From: a phage
Strand: one strand, 5' to 3'
Sequence record: PZ445431.1
DNA length: 64,000 nucleotides
A program made the position numbers and the translations under genes. This document shows, piece after piece, positions 10,463 through 64,000 of the stretch. Position 1 is the stretch's first letter; each line of letters opens with the position of its first letter. The notes under the pieces were generated by a model. That model worked only from the letters and a program-made list of their open reading frames with translations. It was not told the DNA's origin and searched no databases.

Positions 10463-11041
10463 ATGACAGCCATAGTAGCATTTAAATATAAAGATAAAGT
10501 ATACTTAGCCGGTGATCGTATGGGTTCTAATGGCTATACGAAACTGCTGGTTAAAAATCCGAAAGTATTCAAAATCTCTGATGATTTGTGCTTCGGATAC
10601 ACTAGTTCCTTCTACATGGGACAATTACTAGAGCATAGCTTTACTGTACCACCACGTTTAGCAGATATTTCTGATGATAAATATTTATATACGGAAATAG
10701 TACCTAAATTACGTGATATGTTTAACCAGAAAGATTTTGGCGAAAAGAAAAATGAAAAATATGCTGAACCTAATCTGGGACAATTTATTATGCTCTACAA
10801 AGGAAGAATCTTTATTTTCCAATCTAATGCTTCTATTCTAGAAGTTGAATATGCCGGTGTAGGCTGTGGAGGAGAAGATGTACTTTCCAGTATTCGTACA
10901 GGTTTAGCTATTGCGGATTGTCGAGCCACAGATTTAGATGTAGATGATATATTTGAAATCATTGATCTGGCTTTTACGCATTGTGCAGATTATATGTGTG
11001 GTGTATCTTCTCAACATGATATTTTAGTAATTGGAGAATAA
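10463..11041 (+). CDS. putative Ntn-hydrolase, HslV/proteasome-beta-like peptidase
   Basis: N-terminal MTAIVAFKYKDKVYLAGD (Thr2 after Met, as in HslV TTIVSVRR..V.IAGDGQ) and later YAGVGCGGEDV resembling the HslV GSGG motif; similarity judged by eye. Confidence 0.4.
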   Translation: MTAIVAFKYKDKVYLAGDRMGSNGYTKLLVKNPKVFKISDDLCFGYTSSFYMGQLLEHSFTVPPRLADISDDKYLYTEIVPKLRDMFNQKDFGEKKNEKYAEPNLGQFIMLYKGRIFIFQSNASILEVEYAGVGCGGEDVLSSIRTGLAIADCRATDLDVDDIFEIIDLAFTHCADYMCGVSSQHDILVIGE

Positions 11042-12227: not shown

Positions 12228-12743
12228 ATGGCTAAGCAGAAAAACGCAAAAACTCAGGCAGCTCCGGCAGTTAAAACTTTCGCTCAGACCGAAGCCAATC
12301 GTAAGGCTCGTCTGGAACGTCATCTGCGTAAGCATCCTAGCGATGCTCAGGCTCAGACTGCTCTGAAGTCTCCGGTTCCGATTCGTCAGAAGCCGAAGGC
12401 TAAGAACTCCACTCGCGCAACTGCTAAGCAGGTTGTGTTCATCAAGGGTGAAGGTCATAAGTCTGTACCGGTAACTCTGAGCTTTAACGGAGGTGCTGAG
12501 ATGTTCGCCCGCAACGGTATGGCTCTGAAAGATTACGAAAAAGCAGTCAATCAGAAGCGTAAGCCAATGGCTGACGTAATGCGTGAATCCCGTGGACAGT
12601 TTGGCTCCGTTAAACCGAATATCTTCGGGGTAGAGTATAGCCGTGACAACGTTCGCGCTCTGTGCTATGGTATCGGTATTAAGTTTACTGGTGCTTCTGA
12701 TCGTAAATCCACTAAACCTGCTCGTAAGCGTAAAGCGAAGTAA
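12228..12743 (+). CDS. hypothetical basic protein (171 aa), probable highly expressed early protein
   Basis: Lys/Arg-rich; codon choice dominated by CTG/CGT/AAA; consensus promoter upstream and GNRA-loop hairpin terminator downstream. Confidence 0.6.
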   Translation: MAKQKNAKTQAAPAVKTFAQTEANRKARLERHLRKHPSDAQAQTALKSPVPIRQKPKAKNSTRATAKQVVFIKGEGHKSVPVTLSFNGGAEMFARNGMALKDYEKAVNQKRKPMADVMRESRGQFGSVKPNIFGVEYSRDNVRALCYGIGIKFTGASDRKSTKPARKRKAK

Positions 12744-13304: not shown

Positions 13305-14006
13305 ATGAAATTCAAGCCCTTTGGTATGCTGGACATTGAATCTCTAGGTACTCCAGGAAATTGCGGTACTACTCATATTGCAATGCCTTCTTTCGCTTTT
13401 GTAGCGATGCACGGAATTGATAAAGATCCTGATCTGGTATTCGTTACTCTAGACGTTCAAGATCAGCTTAATGCGGGTGCTAAGGTAACTGCCTCTACTA
13501 TTGCATTCTGGATGGATCAAGCTAAAAACAGTCCATCTGCGCTCCATATTATGGAGGCTCTAAATGGTCGTAATCCTAAACTGATTGCCTTCCGTGATGG
13601 TAAGCATCACTGCACTAATGACGTAGGCTCTAATTATGCTGCCTTCTCTATGGCTCAGAACATTATGGAATTGTCTCTAGGAGATAATGCTCTGTATTAC
13701 GGCAATGGCCCAGAGTTTGATATGACTATCTACTCTGCAAATACGTTCCATGCCGGAACCCATGAAGAAGTAGTTCCGTGGAAATTCTGGAACTTAGGTA
13801 ATGTTCGATCTTTCCGTAATCAATGGATGCAAGCTGGTTATAGTTATAAAGATCTAGAAGCCGAAGGTGCTAGCTGGGCAAAAGCTAAAATGGAAAAGAT
13901 GGATACCATTCGTTATGGAATCTATCCAGTTAAACATGATCCAGCATTCGATGCTTTAGTTGAAAGTTATTGTGTAGCCATCATGATCGAAAAAATCAAA
14001 ATTTGA
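13305..14006 (+). CDS. putative DEDDh-type 3'-5' exonuclease-like protein
   Basis: Exo I-like MLDIESLG near N-terminus and C-terminal H-x4-D (KHDPAFD); weak, motif-only. Confidence 0.35.
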   Translation: MKFKPFGMLDIESLGTPGNCGTTHIAMPSFAFVAMHGIDKDPDLVFVTLDVQDQLNAGAKVTASTIAFWMDQAKNSPSALHIMEALNGRNPKLIAFRDGKHHCTNDVGSNYAAFSMAQNIMELSLGDNALYYGNGPEFDMTIYSANTFHAGTHEEVVPWKFWNLGNVRSFRNQWMQAGYSYKDLEAEGASWAKAKMEKMDTIRYGIYPVKHDPAFDALVESYCVAIMIEKIKI

Positions 14007-18604: not shown

Positions 18605-19549
18605 ATGTTTACTAAAAACACTAAAGAACTGACTTCCGATCAAAAAGTAATTCGTACTATTAAACGTTGGGGCGTTGGTGCTGTAGTTGGTCTTGGCGCT
18701 CTTATTCTGGCTCTCAATTCCTATACAGTTGTTCAGGACGGTACGGTTAAAACTCAGACTTTCCTGGGTAAAGTTAGTCCTAATCCTGTATTGCCGGGGT
18801 TCCATATTGTCAACCCATTCGCCTCTTTTGATACTTTTAGTACGAAAGATATTTCTATGAAACTGGATAAACTTCAGGTTCCTAGCCAGGATAAGTTTAA
18901 GTCCACTGTTGACATTACCGTTATGTTGCAGTTTGATGGTGCTAAAGCTCCTATGAACCGTGTTAACGCAGGTACTCAGGATCAAGCTCTGAACAAGTAC
19001 GTTGAAGAGAAGATGCTATCTACGATTCGTGAGTTTGGTAAGTCTGTACCAAAAGCACAAGATCTGTTCGACGCTAAGATTCAGGCTCAACTGCAAACTG
19101 CTATTCAGCAAGAAGTAGAAGAGTACGCGCGTCCTTATGGTTACACGGTTAAGCAAGTATTCCTTCAGGATATTACTCTGCCACCTGTAATCATGGAACA
19201 GGTACAAAACACAAAAGTTCGTGAAGAACAAGTTAACGCCGCTAAAGCTGAATTGGCTCGTGTTGAACAAGAAGCACAGCAGAAAGTTAAGCAAGCTGAA
19301 GCTGATCGTTCTGCTCGTGAAAACATGGCAGTAGCTAACGAACGTGACGCAGATGCTAAACTGTACGCAGCTAAGAAAGAAGCTGAAGCTAACGCCGCGC
19401 TGCAACGTACCATTACTCCTGAAATGATTCGTTGGAAGCAGCTGGAAGTTGAAATGCTTCGTGCTGAAAAATACCAAGGTGGTGTACCGCAGACTGTTGT
19501 TGGTACTGGCTACGATGGTCAAATGATCATGGATATGCGTAACAAGTAA
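18605..19549 (+). CDS. SPFH/band-7 (prohibitin/HflKC-like) membrane protein
   Basis: N-terminal TM helix, then VVQDGTVK...LPGFHIVNPF SPFH core and long Ala/Glu/Gln-rich coiled-coil tail. Confidence 0.7.
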   Translation: MFTKNTKELTSDQKVIRTIKRWGVGAVVGLGALILALNSYTVVQDGTVKTQTFLGKVSPNPVLPGFHIVNPFASFDTFSTKDISMKLDKLQVPSQDKFKSTVDITVMLQFDGAKAPMNRVNAGTQDQALNKYVEEKMLSTIREFGKSVPKAQDLFDAKIQAQLQTAIQQEVEEYARPYGYTVKQVFLQDITLPPVIMEQVQNTKVREEQVNAAKAELARVEQEAQQKVKQAEADRSARENMAVANERDADAKLYAAKKEAEANAALQRTITPEMIRWKQLEVEMLRAEKYQGGVPQTVVGTGYDGQMIMDMRNK

Positions 19550-25926: not shown

Positions 25927-26000
25927 ACATCCATAGCTCAATTGGTTAGAGCTACCGCCTCTTAAGCGGTAGGTTCTAGGTTCAAGTCCTTCATTGGAGA
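25927..26000 (+). tRNA. tRNA-Lys-like (anticodon CUU); acceptor/T stems imperfect
   Basis: Canonical D-arm GCTCAATTGGTTAGAGC and anticodon arm ACCGC-CTCTTAA-GCGGT; acceptor pairing poor by eye. Confidence 0.4.
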
Positions 26001-35577: not shown

Positions 35578-35861
35578 AACCGGAGCCATCCCATGAGTTA
35601 AAGCAAGCTCATATAGATTGGCCTAAAGGACTTCAGCCGTGTAGCTTTGATTTCAAATTCGAAAAGAAATTAGCTACAAATGGTGAAGATGGCGTAGTAG
35701 TTGTTGTACCTTACAAAGATTGGAATGCAAAAGCAAAATGCGAGGAAGCAGTTTACTCTTACATTTCACGACTGACCGGTATGGTTTGCTTCTATCGTCA
35801 AGATTTACAAGAAAAACGTTGCTTAGTTTATTATCCACCCATTACAAATAGGAAAGATTAA
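35508..35861 (+). CDS. lipoprotein, o-spanin-like (embedded/overlapping arrangement)
   Basis: Signal peptide with lipobox LAAAITITGC; overlaps 3' end of preceding membrane protein. Confidence 0.4.
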   Translation: MFNWKLGVLLAAAITITGCAEEIKPEPSHELKQAHIDWPKGLQPCSFDFKFEKKLATNGEDGVVVVVPYKDWNAKAKCEEAVYSYISRLTGMVCFYRQDLQEKRCLVYYPPITNRKD

Positions 35862-36613
35862 TGTCAGTATTAGTCGGTTTACACGGTGAGGCTGGTGCGG
35901 GAAAAGATACCGTTGCAGAATTAATGATTGACTGGTGTAATGACACGTTCCCAACGTGTTTATCCCGTCGTTACAGTTTTGCTAAACCCGTTTACGAACT
36001 TGCATCCGTAATCCTCGGGGTAACTCCAGAGTTTCTGGGAGAGCGCAGGGGGAAAGAGATTGACCAATGGTTTACAGTCACACAATCTCAATTGGAGCGA
36101 GCTAGAGACATATGGTTTAAGTATGGTATCGATAAGTTTGAGGACTTCTCGTACGTTTGGCCTATTTTTGAAGGAAAATACCTTGATCCTCAGCAGTTAA
36201 TTGGGCAAGCTGATGATGCGCTGTATAGCGTGTTTATCTCCCCAAGAAAAATGCTACAGCTTGTAGGTACTGAGTTAGGAAGGCAGCTGGTGCATGAACG
36301 CATTTGGCTCATAATTCTGGAGCAATCCATCGATAAAGACGACCCAGACGTCGCAATCGTTACCGATGTGCGTTTTCCCAATGAGGGAGAGCTAATCATG
36401 GAAACCAATACTCTAGATATGGATTCCATACTTATTAAGGTTGAATCTGGTATTACTAATAAGTATCGCATCGAGACAGATCATCCGTCTGAAAGCGGTA
36501 TTCCTGAAAAATACATTTCTCATAAATTTGAGAATACCTTCAACGGACTTGATGCACTTCGTACCGATGTGTACCACTTCTGTGACTTAGAGCTAGAACC
36601 ACTAGTTGGATAA
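35861..36613 (+). CDS. dnk: deoxynucleoside monophosphate kinase
   Basis: P-loop GLHGEAGAGKDT at N-terminus, 250 aa, matching T5 dNMP kinase size and layout. Confidence 0.7.
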   Translation: MSVLVGLHGEAGAGKDTVAELMIDWCNDTFPTCLSRRYSFAKPVYELASVILGVTPEFLGERRGKEIDQWFTVTQSQLERARDIWFKYGIDKFEDFSYVWPIFEGKYLDPQQLIGQADDALYSVFISPRKMLQLVGTELGRQLVHERIWLIILEQSIDKDDPDVAIVTDVRFPNEGELIMETNTLDMDSILIKVESGITNKYRIETDHPSESGIPEKYISHKFENTFNGLDALRTDVYHFCDLELEPLVG

Positions 36614-36625
36614 TTAAGGATCACT

Positions 36626-37225
36626 ATGACTAACAAGAAAGAAGAAAAGACTAACCTGTTTCACACTGTTCGCCAATCTAATGAGTATACCTTTTTCTTT
36701 GACGAAGAGTTAGGCTCACCGGATGAGTATCGTGATCTATCAATGATACTGATGCAGGCTGGTGAAGATGATGAAATTAATCTGATGATTAATGGGCCTG
36801 GTGGTTACGTTGATACTGCTGCACAGCTATCTAACCTAATAGCTAACTGTCGTGGAACGGTTATTGGGCACCTGCTCGGTCCTAGTGCTTCTGCTTACTG
36901 CACAATCTTCCTATCTTGCCACGGTTGGGTTGTACATCCACATGCTACGCTTATGGGACATACGTTCTCTGGCGGATTCTGCGAGAAAGGTCAAGAAATC
37001 AAGAAAGCCTATGAATCCTACAACCAGTTTGTAGAAGATATGATGCTAGATATTTACTTTCCGTTCTTCTCTGTCGACGAAATCGAGGACATGGTAAAAG
37101 AGAATAAGAATATCTATCTCAACAGCAAAGAAATCAATAAGCGTATTGAAATTTTGGCGAATTATCGTAAAGAGCAGTGTAGTAAAGCTCAAGCCCCACA
37201 TCCAGAAGAACATGGAGAAGTGTAA
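36626..37225 (+). CDS. ClpP-like serine peptidase (S14 family-like)
   Basis: INLMINGPGGYVDTA (ClpP INSPGGVITAG), GPSASAYCTIFL (GQAASMG) and LMGHTFSGG (MIHQPLGG) blocks collinear with ClpP. Confidence 0.55.
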   Translation: MTNKKEEKTNLFHTVRQSNEYTFFFDEELGSPDEYRDLSMILMQAGEDDEINLMINGPGGYVDTAAQLSNLIANCRGTVIGHLLGPSASAYCTIFLSCHGWVVHPHATLMGHTFSGGFCEKGQEIKKAYESYNQFVEDMMLDIYFPFFSVDEIEDMVKENKNIYLNSKEINKRIEILANYRKEQCSKAQAPHPEEHGEV

Positions 37226-37233
37226 GTAGTTTT

Positions 37234-37267
37234 AAGCCAGAGTTTAACGACTCTGGCTTTTCTTTTG
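37234..37267 (+). terminator. rho-independent terminator
   Basis: AAGCCAGAG ... CTCTGGCTT stem followed by TTCTTTTG. Confidence 0.7.
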
Positions 37268-37327
37268 CCTAAAATTCTTCTTGACAACGACAAAAAATTG
37301 TGCTCCAGAAGTGATCTTAAAAAACAC

Positions 37328-37357
37328 ATTGTAATTTTACTCTAGAATTAGTATAAT
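37328..37357 (+). promoter_or_regulatory. candidate promoter upstream of holin (TTGTAA-N18-TATAAT)
   Basis: -10 TATAAT at 37352-37357. Confidence 0.4.
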
Positions 37358-37381
37358 GGTAGTGGTTAGAGGAGGTTACAA

Positions 37382-38038
37382 GTGGAAAAGTTTATACAAC
37401 TATTAACGATACTGCTACAAGAAGCGAAAGATCCAGCTTCACTACTAAAACGTCTGCTAACTATCTTAGTTGCTGTCATTATTTTCTTGTTTGTAAGTAA
37501 CACTAGCGAGGTGATGTCATTTTTAAAGACTTTCTCCACGTCTTCGGTTTTACAGGATGTTCAAACCCAAAGGATAGATAACTTTCCTAATGTAGCACGA
37601 GAAAAGAGTATGGTTCTTTTCTCCCAGACTGGTGCGGATGCCGTTTTTGTAGTAAAGTATAAACCAGATGCTATAAATGATTATTCAAACATTATTGCAT
37701 GGGAAAGCAATGCGCAATTGGATAGGGCTGACTTGGCCGATAAAGCAGTAAATAAGACGTCTGAACTTTATAGACGTCACCTGGAAGGCTTTAACTACGC
37801 TGCGGATTTAAGTGTAAAAGTAAATAAATATACGGGGTCAAATATACCAGCGTTTAAGAACATTACTTTTAATTACGTCTACACTTGTCCATATTTCAAC
37901 CTAAATAATATCTATGCTGGATACATAGGTATTGCATGGAAGGATAAACCCGTAGATACAGCTGATTCGGAACAATTTAATGAGTACTTAGCAAAGCTCT
38001 GTTCCCCACAACGGAGATCATTAGGTAGATCTATATGA
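37382..38038 (+). CDS. holin (T5-type, large)
   Basis: GTG start after AGAGGAGG; N-terminal TM helix; immediately upstream of and overlapping the endolysin gene. Confidence 0.6.
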   Translation: MEKFIQLLTILLQEAKDPASLLKRLLTILVAVIIFLFVSNTSEVMSFLKTFSTSSVLQDVQTQRIDNFPNVAREKSMVLFSQTGADAVFVVKYKPDAINDYSNIIAWESNAQLDRADLADKAVNKTSELYRRHLEGFNYAADLSVKVNKYTGSNIPAFKNITFNYVYTCPYFNLNNIYAGYIGIAWKDKPVDTADSEQFNEYLAKLCSPQRRSLGRSI

Positions 38039-38448
38039 GTTTTAAATTTGGTAAAAATAGCGAAAAACAATTAGCAACTGTTAAGCCCGAGCTACAGAAG
38101 GTAGCTCGTAGGGCTTTAGAATTATCTCCATATGATTTCATAATCGTACAGGGTATTCGTACAGTAGCACAAAGTGCCCAAAACATTGCTAATGGTACTT
38201 CATTTTTGAAAGACCCTAGCAAGAGTAAGCATGTAACTGGAGACGCTATCGATTTTGCACCATATATTAATGGAAAGATTGATTGGAAAGATCTGGAAGC
38301 ATTTTGGGCTGTTAAGAAGGCTTTTGAACAAGCCGGTAAGGAACTTGGTGTCAAACTTCGTTTTGGTGCCGACTGGAATAGTTCTGGTGATTATCATGAT
38401 GAGATCGATCGTGGTACTTACGACGGTGGTCACGTAGAATTAGTCTGA
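38035..38448 (+). CDS. lys: endolysin, L-alanyl-D-glutamate peptidase (M15 family)
   Basis: 137 aa with SKHVTGDAIDF and DGGHVEL zinc-binding motifs; size and motifs match T5 endolysin. Confidence 0.85.
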   Translation: MSFKFGKNSEKQLATVKPELQKVARRALELSPYDFIIVQGIRTVAQSAQNIANGTSFLKDPSKSKHVTGDAIDFAPYINGKIDWKDLEAFWAVKKAFEQAGKELGVKLRFGADWNSSGDYHDEIDRGTYDGGHVELV

Positions 38449-38458
38449 TAATAAATCA

Positions 38459-38482
38459 AGGCGGGGTAATTCCCGCCTTTTA
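38459..38482 (+). terminator. rho-independent terminator
   Basis: GGCGGG-GTAATT-CCCGCC followed by TTTT. Confidence 0.7.
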
Positions 38483-38523
38483 AAGCAAAGGGGGCTTTAA
38501 AAACTTAATGATAGGAGAAAGCC

Positions 38524-63518: not shown

Positions 63519-64000
63519 ATGGCAAATGATGTATTAGTTCCCGATCTCATGTCTCCCGAAGGCATGGATGTTATTGAAGCCTATTTACAGTGCGGTAGTG
63601 ATGTTCCTGCCGCCGCTCGTAGTCTTGGAATGTCCGAGATTGCATTCCGTGATATAATGAATCGTGGGGAAGTTAAAAACTATCTCAACGATATCTTTAT
63701 GGAAAGTGGCTTCCGTAATCGTGACCGCTTATTCGGAGTTCTTGACGAAGTTATCAAGCGTAAGCTGGAAGAACTTGAAGAAACTGGCATGGGTTCTGAC
63801 CAGGATATCATGGATATTCTCTGGAAGGCGCACAAGATGAAGATGGAAGAAATGAAAATGATGGTAGAACTGGAGAAAGTGAAGGCAGCAGCCCGTACTC
63901 CGGCTAACCAGACTAATATTCAGAATAATATTATTGCTGGAAGTGGTGACGAAAACTATATGAATCTTATTACCGCTCTAGCAGGAGGAGGTAAGAGATA
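63519..64000 (+). CDS. putative terminase small subunit-like protein, partial (3' end beyond window)
   Basis: AGGAGGA RBS; N-terminal helix-turn-helix-like segment ([21 protein letters not shown]) and charged coiled-coil region. Confidence 0.4.

What the first reader, a model, noticed from the sequence alone, without database searches (positions are those of the whole stretch)
36626..37225. ClpP-like peptidase in the early region
Blocks INLMINGPGGYVDTA, GPSASAYCTIFL and LMGHTFSGG align by eye with ClpP segments containing the catalytic Ser and His. It sits between dNMP kinase and the lysis genes, not in a head-morphogenesis context, so a prohead protease role is unlikely. Together with the HslV-like gene this gives the phage two protease-core homologues.
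Basis: inference. Interest (0 to 1): 0.5.

Follow-up and report, generated by a model that had tools for sequence, protein, structure and literature searches.

The report
T5-type phage ClpP-like early protease
This is the already-annotated "Clp protease" gene of T5-like phages: a genuine ClpP-fold serine peptidase that is not the capsid-maturation protease, probably does not use the host's ClpX/ClpA motors, and still has no known function.

Summary
The ORF at 36626-37225 (+, 199 aa) is real and holds the three quoted blocks. It belongs to the ClpP superfamily: Pfam CLP_protease scores above its gathering cut-off, profile-profile comparison with cellular ClpP gives E 1e-23, the AlphaFold model has pLDDT 90, and its best PDB matches are all ClpP. 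Ser89 and His112 align with the ClpP nucleophile and base and are essentially invariant in about 180 relatives.

The window is a T5-like phage, 100% identical here to Escherichia phage TrudiRoth/Bas30, where the gene is already annotated "Clp-like protease". Hundreds of T5-like records carry the same kind of label (PHROG 1827). The "HslV-like" gene is also real (10463-11041).

- The third triad residue is Asn162, not Asp. This occurs only in the T5-like clade and is maintained under strong purifying selection.
- The ClpP N-terminal gate and the hydrophobic ClpX/ClpA docking pocket are not conserved, so the usual "ATP-dependent" label is unsupported.
- The gene ends an early spanin-dnk-clp transcription unit.

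Function is untested. This is a known gene of modest interest.

The parts
36626..37225 (+). CDS of the ClpP-like peptidase (199 aa plus stop). It is the orthologue of T5 clP ('putative ATP-dependent Clp protease') and of TrudiRoth bas30_0151.
   Evidence: ORF and translation. Pfam PF00574 above its cut-off. PHROG 1827 at 2e-88. 100% DNA identity to MZ501109, where it is annotated 'Clp-like protease'. dN/dS of 0.07-0.10.
36616..36620 (+). Shine-Dalgarno-like AAGGA, 5 nt upstream of the ATG and 3 nt after the dnk stop codon. The spacing suggests translational and transcriptional coupling to dnk.
   Evidence: Read directly from the sequence. A ribosome-binding site is annotated at the equivalent place in phiR2-01.
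36776..36820 (+). Residues 51-65, INLMINGPGGYVDTA, equivalent to the ClpP 'YINSPGG' loop. N56, G59 and G60 are invariant in the 53-sequence alignment A3.
36890..36892 (+). Codon TCT for Ser89, the predicted nucleophile, aligned to E. coli ClpP precursor Ser111 (mature Ser97).
   Evidence: Alignments. Ser is present in 99% of about 180 family sequences. Codon.
36959..36961 (+). Codon CAT for His112, the predicted general base, aligned to E. coli ClpP precursor His136 (mature His122). It is followed by the conserved GG of the substrate-binding strand.
37109..37111 (+). Codon AAT for Asn162, at the position of the ClpP catalytic Asp (E. coli precursor Asp185, mature Asp171). Asn occurs only in the T5-like clade.
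   Evidence: In 183 family sequences the triad is S-H-D in 153, S-H-E in 17, S-H-N in 8 and S-H-T in 3. The codon is AAT or AAC in orthologues and GAT (Asp) in a Klebsiella phage at 53% identity.
36995..37057 (+). Residues 124-144, a long helix equivalent to the ClpP 'handle' helix E, which forms the ring-ring interface in ClpP.
37124..37192 (+). Residues 167-189, a family-specific long C-terminal helix, followed by a short low-confidence acidic tail (residues 190-199). E. coli ClpP has no long helix or tail here: only about 12 residues follow the aligned core. Relatives have longer tails, up to about 140 residues.
   Evidence: helix 167-189; pLDDT 59 for residues 191-199. (C-terminal extension: median 42 residues, maximum 138). 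(Vibrio phage version of 320 aa with an acidic tail).
37234..37269 (+). Intrinsic-terminator-like hairpin (11-bp stem, 4-nt loop, T-rich tail) 9 nt after the stop codon. It ends the spanin-dnk-clp transcription unit.
   Evidence: The stem and T-run are conserved in DT57C, phiR2-01 and the Klebsiella phage, which has paired changes at the stem ends.
37329..37357 (+). Boundary element, not part of the gene: a sigma-70 promoter-like TTGTAA-17-TATAAT (10 of 12 matches). It is followed by the RBS GAGGAGG and the GTG start of the T-type holin at 37382.
   Evidence: Conserved in all four phages aligned. Holin identified as Pfam Phage_holin_T at 8e-111.
35861..36613 (+). Upstream dNMP kinase gene (dnk), adjacent to the ClpP-like gene in every Demerecviridae-like genome examined except one Vibrio phage, where one small ORF intervenes.
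   Evidence: adjacent; one ORF between them in a Vibrio phage.

Best explanation
The ORF is the T5-family clP gene. It encodes a non-structural, early-expressed serine peptidase of the ClpP (MEROPS S14) fold, in a large phage-specific subfamily (PHROG 1827/5410).

Shown here:
- It has the ClpP core plus handle helix, the nucleophile Ser89, the base His112, and the NGPGG and GG motifs.
- It is under strong purifying selection.
- It is the last gene of a spanin-dnk-clp unit that ends at a conserved hairpin.
- The phage has a different, S78-type prohead protease elsewhere.

Inferred:
- Like other ClpP-fold enzymes, it assembles into rings that enclose the active sites.
- Its N-terminal gating segment and its ClpX/ClpA docking pocket are not conserved, and no unfoldase gene accompanies it. 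It therefore most likely works without an ATPase partner, as a peptidase or limited-proteolysis enzyme acting on unstructured or specifically recruited phage or host polypeptides in the infected cell. The family-specific C-terminal helix and acidic tail are the likely recruitment or regulatory element.
- In the T5-like clade the triad acid is Asn162. By analogy with Listeria ClpP1, this predicts low intrinsic activity that depends on a conformational or partner-induced activation step.
For: Family and fold.

Catalytic Ser and His invariant.

Purifying selection: dN/dS is 0.07-0.10 at dS of about 1, and the Asn codon varies synonymously between AAT and AAC.

Not the prohead protease: the head module has its own Peptidase_S78. 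[quoted passage not shown] 2016, and separately calls the Clp protease function unknown (PMC10644984).

No canonical ATPase coupling:
- hhalign aligns only query residues 23-172 to E. coli residues 43-195, so the ClpP N-terminal loops and helix A have no counterpart.
- Residues 1-19 are modelled as coil at low confidence.
- N-terminal length varies from 0 to 71 residues with no conserved positions.
- Of ten E. coli docking-pocket positions, nine are at least 71% hydrophobic in cellular ClpPs, eight of them at least 90%. The phage family is mostly polar at these positions. For example F82 becomes N74 (8% hydrophobic in the family), L48 becomes M40 (15%) and A52 becomes Q44 (11%); Y60 becomes N52, I90 becomes H82 and L114 becomes H104.
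- No AAA+ unfoldase neighbour was found in any context examined. The only AAA+ neighbour is a gp44 clamp loader.

Transcription unit.

Against: No biochemical or genetic data exist for any member. Full-text searches found no occurrence of 'phage-encoded ClpP', 'phage ClpP' or 'viral ClpP', and the BF23 paper says the function is unknown.

Oligomeric state could not be modelled with these tools. The list of docking-pocket residues was recalled from the ClpP literature rather than derived here; only the residue letters at those positions were checked against the E. coli sequence. Pocket mapping rests on a sequence alignment at 16% identity.

An Asn in the triad could mean that the T5-clade protein is a very poor enzyme or not an enzyme at all. 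Detection of the BF23 orthologue in purified virions does not fit a purely intracellular role.
Confidence: 0.55

Rival explanations
1. It is what most GenBank records call it: an ATP-dependent Clp protease proteolytic subunit. It would replace or supplement host ClpP and be fed substrates by host ClpX or ClpA.
For: The ClpP fold with handle helix and the Ser/His active site. The annotation is widespread. The phage encodes no unfoldase of its own in the annotated record, so any partner would have to come from the host.
Against: The hydrophobic IGF/LGF docking pocket is largely polar, and the N-terminal axial loops and helix A have no counterpart. NCBIfam ClpP equivalog and subfamily models score 15-21 bits against cut-offs of 228-347. 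The N-terminus varies in length and sequence across the family.
Confidence: 0.13
2. It behaves like Listeria ClpP1. A phage-encoded heptamer, inactive on its own because of the Ser-His-Asn triad, stacks on a host ClpP heptamer. The hybrid tetradecamer is still fed by ClpX or ClpA through the host ring, but has altered activity or specificity, or is poisoned.
Against: Most of the family, in other phages, keeps Asp or Glu, so the heteromer idea would apply to one clade only. Identity to E. coli ClpP is only about 16%, which makes a complementary ring-ring interface uncertain. The clade-specific substitutions come from a single lineage and may simply be co-inherited. Nothing was tested directly.
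Confidence: 0.1
3. It is a virion-associated or assembly-associated protease: a second maturation enzyme, or a packaged protein acting at the start of the next infection.
For: The BF23 orthologue (ORF45) was detected in purified virions with 3 peptides, at an intensity similar to that of the tail tube terminator and tail completion proteins (PMC10644984). By profile score the protein is closer to ClpP-related head maturation proteases (PHROG 1684 at 1e-20; NCBIfam Clp_rel_HeadMat at 41 bits) than to cellular ClpP.
Against: The gene lies in the early region in a unit with dnk, far from the head and tail genes. The same virion preparation also contained dihydrofolate reductase, a non-structural enzyme, so carry-over contamination is an equally good explanation (my inference). 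It scores far below the NCBIfam head-maturation cut-off, 41 against 120. The near-atomic T5 virion paper mentions no Clp protein or protease. Homologues in other phages sit in replication or early modules.
Confidence: 0.08
4. In the T5-like clade it is a catalytically dead pseudo-protease that acts as a scaffold, decoy or binder, for example by sequestering a host factor.
For: Asp is replaced by Asn at the triad position. LmClpP1 with the same triad is inactive alone.
Against: Ser89, His112, the NGPGG loop and the GG strand all remain invariant in the Asn clade under dN/dS of about 0.08. That is not expected if catalysis had been abandoned. LmClpP1 becomes active once templated.
Confidence: 0.07
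5. It is an NfeD/STOPP-like protease whose substrate or partner is the phage's own SPFH/Band-7 protein (window 18605-19549), as in prokaryotic NfeD-stomatin pairs.
Against: NfeD1b_N scores 17.4 bits against a cut-off of 40, and ClpP scores higher by both sequence and structure. The two genes are 17 kb apart. The SPFH gene occurs in Demerecviridae plus T4-like Klebsiella and Aeromonas phages. The Clp family occurs also in Vibrio, Pseudomonas and Rheinheimera phages, so the distributions do not match. No transmembrane or OB domain is present. The invariant His points to ClpP-type chemistry rather than the Ser-Lys chemistry of 1510-N (the latter from my own knowledge of that enzyme).
Confidence: 0.04

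Closest known systems
T5 clP / PHROG 1827 'ATP-dependent protease' of Demerecviridae (e.g. TrudiRoth bas30_0151, DT57C ACQ32_gp037, BF23 ORF45)
   Same: It is the same gene. DNA identity to TrudiRoth is 100% over 35800-38500. Protein identity to Tequintavirus and other Epseptimavirus orthologues is 83-100%. The spanin-dnk-clp-holin-endolysin order is the same.
   Different: Nothing of substance. The window genome differs from the TrudiRoth record elsewhere, by a 979-bp deletion in the tRNA region. The 'ATP-dependent' part of the usual product name is not supported by the docking-site analysis.
Cellular ClpP (MEROPS S14; E. coli ClpP, PDB 1tyf/1yg6)
   Same: The alpha/beta core and handle helix, the Ser and His in register, the xNxPGG loop and the H-x-x-x-GG strand.
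   Different: Only about 16% identity. Asn162 replaces the catalytic Asp. There is no counterpart of the N-terminal axial loops or helix A. The ClpX/ClpA docking pocket is mostly polar. A long C-terminal helix and tail are added. NCBIfam ClpP models score far below their cut-offs.
Listeria monocytogenes ClpP1 (PDB 4jcq, 4ryf)
   Different: It is a bacterial paralogue that works with a co-encoded ClpP2. Whether the phage protein is a heptamer or pairs with any ClpP is unknown, and no phage-encoded canonical ClpP is present.
ClpP-related phage head maturation proteases (NCBIfam NF045542; PHROG 1684, 94)
   Same: These are its nearest relatives by profile score among named families, at E 1e-20 for PHROG 1684. 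They are also phage-encoded, and such proteases are generally thought to act without an ATPase (my own knowledge).
   Different: It scores 41 bits against the NF045542 cut-off of 120. It is not located next to portal, scaffold or capsid genes. The phage uses an S78 protease for head maturation.
SppA (S49) and NfeD/STOPP 1510-N
   Different: Both score lower than ClpP in structure and sequence. They use Ser-Lys chemistry and are membrane-associated (established knowledge). The phage protein has an invariant His and no membrane segment.

Membership tests
ClpP superfamily (Pfam PF00574 CLP_protease / MEROPS clan SK, family S14 in the broad sense) | Profile score above the curated cut-off | tested here: met
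   31.1 bits against a gathering score of 20.2, E 2.6e-7. hhalign against a ClpP profile gives E 1.1e-23.
ClpP superfamily (Pfam PF00574 CLP_protease / MEROPS clan SK, family S14 in the broad sense) | ClpP fold: alpha/beta head domain plus handle (strand and long helix E) | tested here: met
ClpP superfamily (Pfam PF00574 CLP_protease / MEROPS clan SK, family S14 in the broad sense) | Catalytic Ser and His at the homologous positions | tested here: met
   Ser89 aligns to Ser111 and His112 to His136 of the E. coli precursor. Both are present in 99% of about 180 relatives.
Canonical ClpP (the ATP-dependent Clp protease proteolytic subunit; NCBIfam TIGR00493 / PRK00277) | Curated equivalog or subfamily score | tested here: not met
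   15.2-20.6 bits against cut-offs of 228-347.
Canonical ClpP (the ATP-dependent Clp protease proteolytic subunit; NCBIfam TIGR00493 / PRK00277) | Catalytic Asp completing the Ser-His-Asp triad | tested here: not met
   Asn162 (codon AAT) aligns with E. coli Asp185. Asp or Glu is present in more distant family members.
Canonical ClpP (the ATP-dependent Clp protease proteolytic subunit; NCBIfam TIGR00493 / PRK00277) | Conserved N-terminal axial loops and helix A that gate the pore and couple to the ATPase | tested here: not met
   The profile alignment starts at query residue 23 and E. coli residue 43. Residues 1-19 are coil at low pLDDT. N-terminal length ranges from 0 to 71 residues with no conserved positions.
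Canonical ClpP (the ATP-dependent Clp protease proteolytic subunit; NCBIfam TIGR00493 / PRK00277) | Hydrophobic surface pocket that binds the IGF/LGF loops of ClpX/ClpA | tested here: not met
   Ten pocket positions were mapped. Cellular ClpPs are at least 90% hydrophobic at eight of them. The phage family is 8-41% hydrophobic at seven of them. In the window protein five of the ten are polar: Q44, N52, N74, H82 and H104. The list of pocket residues comes from my recollection of the ClpP literature.
Canonical ClpP (the ATP-dependent Clp protease proteolytic subunit; NCBIfam TIGR00493 / PRK00277) | Tetradecameric barrel, and ATP-dependent proteolysis with a Clp ATPase | not testable with these tools
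   No multimer prediction or model coordinates were available, and no experimental data were found.
ClpP-related head maturation protease (NCBIfam NF045542) | Score above the curated cut-off | tested here: not met
   41.2 bits against a cut-off of 120.
ClpP-related head maturation protease (NCBIfam NF045542) | Gene located in the head module next to portal, scaffold or major capsid genes | tested here: not met
   It lies in the early region between dnk and the holin. The head module has its own S78 protease.
NfeD / STOPP (Pfam PF25145 NfeD1b_N) | Score above the curated cut-off, and pairing with an SPFH gene | tested here: not met
   17.4 bits against a cut-off of 40. The phage SPFH gene is 17 kb away and has a different distribution across phages.
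PHROG 1827 (phage 'ATP-dependent protease' family) | Full-length profile match | tested here: met
   E 2.1e-88, residues 1-198 aligned to profile positions 5-201 of 202.
Listeria ClpP1-type Ser-His-Asn ClpP | Asn at the triad acid position, and absence of a chaperone docking site | tested here: met
   LmClpP1 properties from PMC9257651.
Listeria ClpP1-type Ser-His-Asn ClpP | Inactive heptamer that is activated by stacking on a canonical ClpP ring | not testable with these tools
   Needs biochemistry or multimer modelling.

The most novel reading that the evidence does not exclude
The T5-clade protein is a viral counterpart of Listeria ClpP1. It would be a Ser-His-Asn heptamer that is inert alone and stacks on a host ClpP ring. 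The hybrid barrel would hijack substrates delivered by host ClpX or ClpA, or would disable host ClpXP/ClpAP during infection. That would be a phage taking over the host's regulated proteolysis at the level of the protease chamber rather than the adaptor.
Probability: 0.1. Interest if true: 0.75.

Novelty: already known. Interest (0 to 1): 0.3.

Why it matters
The gene is conserved in essentially all T5-like phages and has homologues in many other large lytic phages: 1,305 phage records, and 532 clusters at 50% identity below 1e-30 in metagenomes. It is under strong purifying selection. Yet a 2023 paper on the T5 relative BF23 still calls its function unknown.

Two results here affect how it should be studied. 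First, it is probably not an "ATP-dependent" ClpX/ClpA client, which corrects a label propagated through hundreds of records. Second, the T5 clade carries a selected Ser-His-Asn triad, which in the one characterised precedent means that activity depends on a partner ring. T5 and the BASEL phages are genetically tractable, so a deletion or S89A mutant would be a cheap way to learn what a non-capsid phage ClpP does.

Tried and rejected
1. Holin fusion. In Vibrio phage 70E35-1 the homologue is 320 aa and abuts the endolysin with no annotated holin. I tested whether its C-terminal extension is holin-like. It is an acidic, low-complexity tail with no similarity to the T-type holin (BLASTP E 28). 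Rejected.

2. SPFH partner (NfeD-stomatin analogy). The genome encodes an SPFH protein, but its distribution across phages does not track the Clp family, and the NfeD profile score is below its cut-off. Rejected as the main reading.

3. Functional linkage with the HslV-like gene. That gene is present in only about 126 close relatives plus scattered jumbo phages, whereas clP is in about 440 T5-like records. It is an accessory gene that does not co-vary with clP.

4. Conserved AAA+ unfoldase neighbour. None was found in Demerecviridae, Barbavirus, Pakpunavirus or three metagenomic contexts. The only AAA+ neighbour is a gp44 clamp loader.

5. Defence-system membership. There were no PADLOC hits for the ClpP-like, HslV-like or SPFH proteins.

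6. Literature. Searches for T5 with Clp protease, 'Clp-like protease', Tequintavirus with ClpP, phage-encoded/phage/viral ClpP, and T5 locus tags returned no functional study. The only substantive statement found is in the BF23 paper.

7. Triad geometry in the model. Coordinates are not exposed to the scripting environment, so the distances between His112 and Asn162 or Glu120 could not be measured.

8. Compensating acid. Glu120 is specific to the Asn clade, but it lies eight residues beyond His112 in the handle strand. I judged it unlikely to substitute in the triad. This could not be tested.
Full report
**1. What is at the coordinates**

An ATG-initiated ORF of 199 codons occupies 36626-37225 on the + strand. 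The reverse strand is full of stop codons.

**2. Is it ClpP-like?**

Yes, by every independent measure available.
- Pfam CLP_protease (PF00574) scores 31.1 bits, above its gathering score of 20.2.
- PHROG 1827 ('ATP-dependent protease') matches end to end at E 2e-88.
- phmmer against all PDB sequences returns essentially only ClpP chains.
- A profile of the phage family against a profile of cellular ClpPs gives 99.6% probability and E 1e-23, aligning query residues 23-172 to E. coli ClpP precursor residues 43-195.
- An AlphaFold2 model built on a 53-sequence alignment is confident (pLDDT 90.1, pTM 0.83). It shows the alpha/beta core, a 21-residue 'handle' helix (124-144) and an extra long C-terminal helix (167-189).
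- The 50 best Foldseek PDB hits are all ClpP.

**3. Catalytic residues**

Ser89 and His112 align with the E. coli ClpP nucleophile and base (precursor Ser111 and His136). They are invariant in the 53-sequence alignment and present in 99% of about 180 family sequences.

The third triad position (E. coli Asp185) is Asn162 in the window protein. Across 183 family sequences the triad is Ser-His-Asp in 153, Ser-His-Glu in 17, Ser-His-Asn in 8 and Ser-His-Thr in 3. All eight Asn cases belong to the T5-like clade, at 59% identity or more to the query.

The gene is under strong purifying selection. dN/dS is 0.07-0.10 at dS of about 1 against DT57C and phiR2-01. The Asn codon itself varies synonymously (AAT/AAC), while a Klebsiella phage orthologue at 53% identity has GAT, which is Asp. 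Asn is therefore a fixed and maintained state of this clade, not decay.

The same clade also carries specific substitutions at Tyr91, two residues after the nucleophile, and at Glu120, in the handle strand, where 94% of other members have Gly. These come from a single lineage, so they cannot be separated from shared ancestry.

**4. Where the window comes from, and what is already known**

The region 35800-38500 is 100% identical to Escherichia phage TrudiRoth (Bas30; Demerecviridae, Epseptimavirus). The ORF there is bas30_0151, 'Clp-like protease'. 456 phage records match this DNA. Most label the gene 'ATP-dependent Clp protease (proteolytic subunit)', and in DT57C it is gene clP, noted as the homologue of the T5 'putative ATP-dependent Clp protease'.

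The identity of the gene is therefore not new. Its function is open. The BF23 study says of the orthologue (ORF45) that its function 'is currently unknown', and reports 3 peptides of it in purified virions (PMC10644984). Full-text searches for phage-encoded, phage or viral ClpP returned no occurrences. Other searches found no functional work.

**5. Context**

The local gene order is: hypothetical protein, i-spanin, o-spanin, dNMP kinase, ClpP-like, holin, endolysin.
- The ClpP-like gene starts 12 nt after the dnk stop codon and has its own Shine-Dalgarno-like AAGGA.
- Nine nucleotides after its stop there is an 11-bp-stem hairpin with a T-rich tail (37234-37269).
- A TTGTAA-17-TATAAT element, a GAGGAGG ribosome-binding site and the holin start codon follow.
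- The hairpin, the -10 element and the RBS are conserved in DT57C, phiR2-01 and a Klebsiella phage whose protein is only 53% identical.

I infer that clP closes a transcription unit shared with dnk and the spanins, while holin and endolysin have their own promoter. The holin is a T4 T-type holin (Pfam Phage_holin_T, 8e-111).

The dnk-clp-(holin)-endolysin arrangement persists in Klebsiella and Vibrio Demerecviridae-like phages and in a metagenomic relative at 42% identity. More distant members sit elsewhere: next to PhoH and Dam in Barbavirus, among small early ORFs in Pakpunavirus, and beside gp32 and the gp44 clamp loader in a T4-like contig. None of the contexts examined is a head module, and none has an adjacent unfoldase.

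**6. Not the prohead protease**

The TrudiRoth record has a 'prohead protease' (bas30_0007) between the decoration protein and the major capsid protein. It is a Peptidase_S78, E 3e-19. [quoted passage not shown] 2016.

**7. Can it work with ClpX or ClpA?**

Probably not in the canonical way.
- The profile alignment leaves the first 22 residues of the phage protein and the first 42 of the E. coli precursor unaligned. In E. coli that segment is the propeptide, axial loops and helix A.
- The model shows residues 1-19 as low-confidence coil.
- In the family this segment ranges from 0 to 71 residues and has no conserved position.
- I mapped ten E. coli residues that line the IGF/LGF-loop docking pocket. 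The list comes from my knowledge of the ClpP-ADEP and ClpXP structures, and I checked the residue letters against the sequence.
- In 21 cellular ClpPs, eight of the ten are at least 90% hydrophobic.
- In the phage family most are polar. In the window protein the substitutions are L48 to M40, F49 to I41, A52 to Q44, Y60 to N52, Y62 to M54, F82 to N74, I90 to H82, M92 to L84, F112 to V102 and L114 to H104.
- NCBIfam ClpP equivalog models score 15-21 bits against cut-offs of 228-347.

The protein belongs to the ClpP superfamily but fails the features that define the ATP-dependent ClpP subunit. The 'ATP-dependent' label in databases is inherited from the Pfam name.

**8. Most likely mechanism**

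Shown: a ClpP-fold protein with an intact Ser/His centre, conserved under selection, placed in the early region, and not the capsid protease.

Inferred: it forms ClpP-like rings and acts without an unfoldase, as a peptidase or limited-proteolysis enzyme on unstructured or recruited polypeptides. The variable N-terminal segment and the family-specific C-terminal helix and acidic tail would serve as gating or recruitment elements.

**9. The 'two protease cores' remark**

Window 10463-11041 encodes a 192-aa protein that passes Pfam Proteasome (38 bits against 22.4). It begins Met-Thr-Ala-Ile-Val, as expected of an Ntn hydrolase of the HslV/proteasome-beta type. It is annotated 'hypothetical protein' in TrudiRoth but 'peptidase HslV family' in a few relatives. 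It occurs in only about 126 close T5-like records plus some jumbo phages, so it is an accessory gene with a distribution unlike that of clP. The remark is true for this genome, but I found no evidence that the two genes are linked.

**10. Verdict**

The observation and the interpretation are both correct, and the gene is already known and annotated. This analysis adds the clade-specific, selected Ser-His-Asn triad, the missing gate and docking pocket, the transcription-unit boundary, and the size and contexts of the phage family. Interest is modest (0.3). The open question of what a non-capsid phage ClpP does is real and easy to test experimentally, but nothing here is surprising to a specialist.

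Noticed in passing
window 10463-11041 (+): A 192-aa proteasome/HslV-family protein (Pfam PF00227 at 38 bits against a cut-off of 22.4) starting Met-Thr-Ala-Ile-Val, so it has a potential N-terminal Thr nucleophile. It is annotated 'hypothetical protein' in TrudiRoth. It is found in only about 126 close T5-like records plus scattered jumbo phages such as 121Q. No HslU-like partner is annotated in the phage.
   Followed up: partly
window 18605-19549 (+): A 314-aa SPFH/Band-7 (stomatin/prohibitin-like) protein (Pfam PF01145, 70 bits), annotated 'lipoprotein' or 'hypothetical' in relatives. It is shared at 64-82% identity with T4-like Klebsiella, Citrobacter, Enterobacter and Aeromonas phages, which suggests exchange between unrelated phage groups.
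   Followed up: partly
window 25933-25991, compared with MZ501109 record positions 75982-76903: The window lacks 979 bp that are present in the TrudiRoth record. The breakpoints fall within a ~58-bp stretch that reads the same under either alignment offset and overlaps two tRNA-Lys(AAG) genes. This looks like a deletion by recombination between duplicated tRNA genes, removing tRNA-Gly, one tRNA-Lys copy and three small ORFs. The source genome is therefore a close relative or variant of TrudiRoth, not the deposited record itself.
   Followed up: partly
window ~63900-64000: The end of the window matches the start of the TrudiRoth record (small terminase, record position ~382). The window therefore comes from an assembly that is permuted, or that runs through the point where the GenBank record is opened.
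   Followed up: no
window 13305-14006 (+): The protein corresponding by position to bas30_0074, annotated 'putative metallopeptidase' in TrudiRoth, hits Pfam Rv2179c-like 3'-5' exoribonuclease (32 bits against a cut-off of 27) and no peptidase family. The public annotation may be wrong.
   Followed up: no
window 37382-38038 (+) and 38035-38448 (+): The holin downstream is a T4 T-type holin (Pfam Phage_holin_T, 8e-111) with its own conserved promoter-like element and strong RBS. The spanin genes lie about 2 kb upstream in a different unit, so the lysis cassette is split by dnk and clP. A metagenomic relative keeps the same split order.
   Followed up: partly
residues 39, 91, 120 and 158 of the ORF (window 36740-36742, 36896-36898, 36983-36985, 37097-37099): Four substitutions co-occur exclusively, or nearly so, with Asn162 in the T5-like clade: Ser39, Tyr91 (two residues after the nucleophile), Glu120 (Gly in 94% of other members, in the handle strand) and an inserted Lys158. 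They may reflect a remodelled equatorial or active-site region, or only shared ancestry.
   Followed up: partly
L005 3399-4361 (Vibrio phage 70E35-1): The Vibrio phage orthologue is 320 aa. It has a ClpP-like domain with a Ser-His-Asp triad, then a ~140-residue highly acidic, low-complexity tail. Its stop overlaps the endolysin start, and no holin is annotated in between. PHROG 5410 appears to represent this long form.
   Followed up: partly
window 12228-12743 (+): A 171-aa protein that matches Pfam DUF7022 full-length (266 bits). It belongs to a conserved family with no known function.
   Followed up: no
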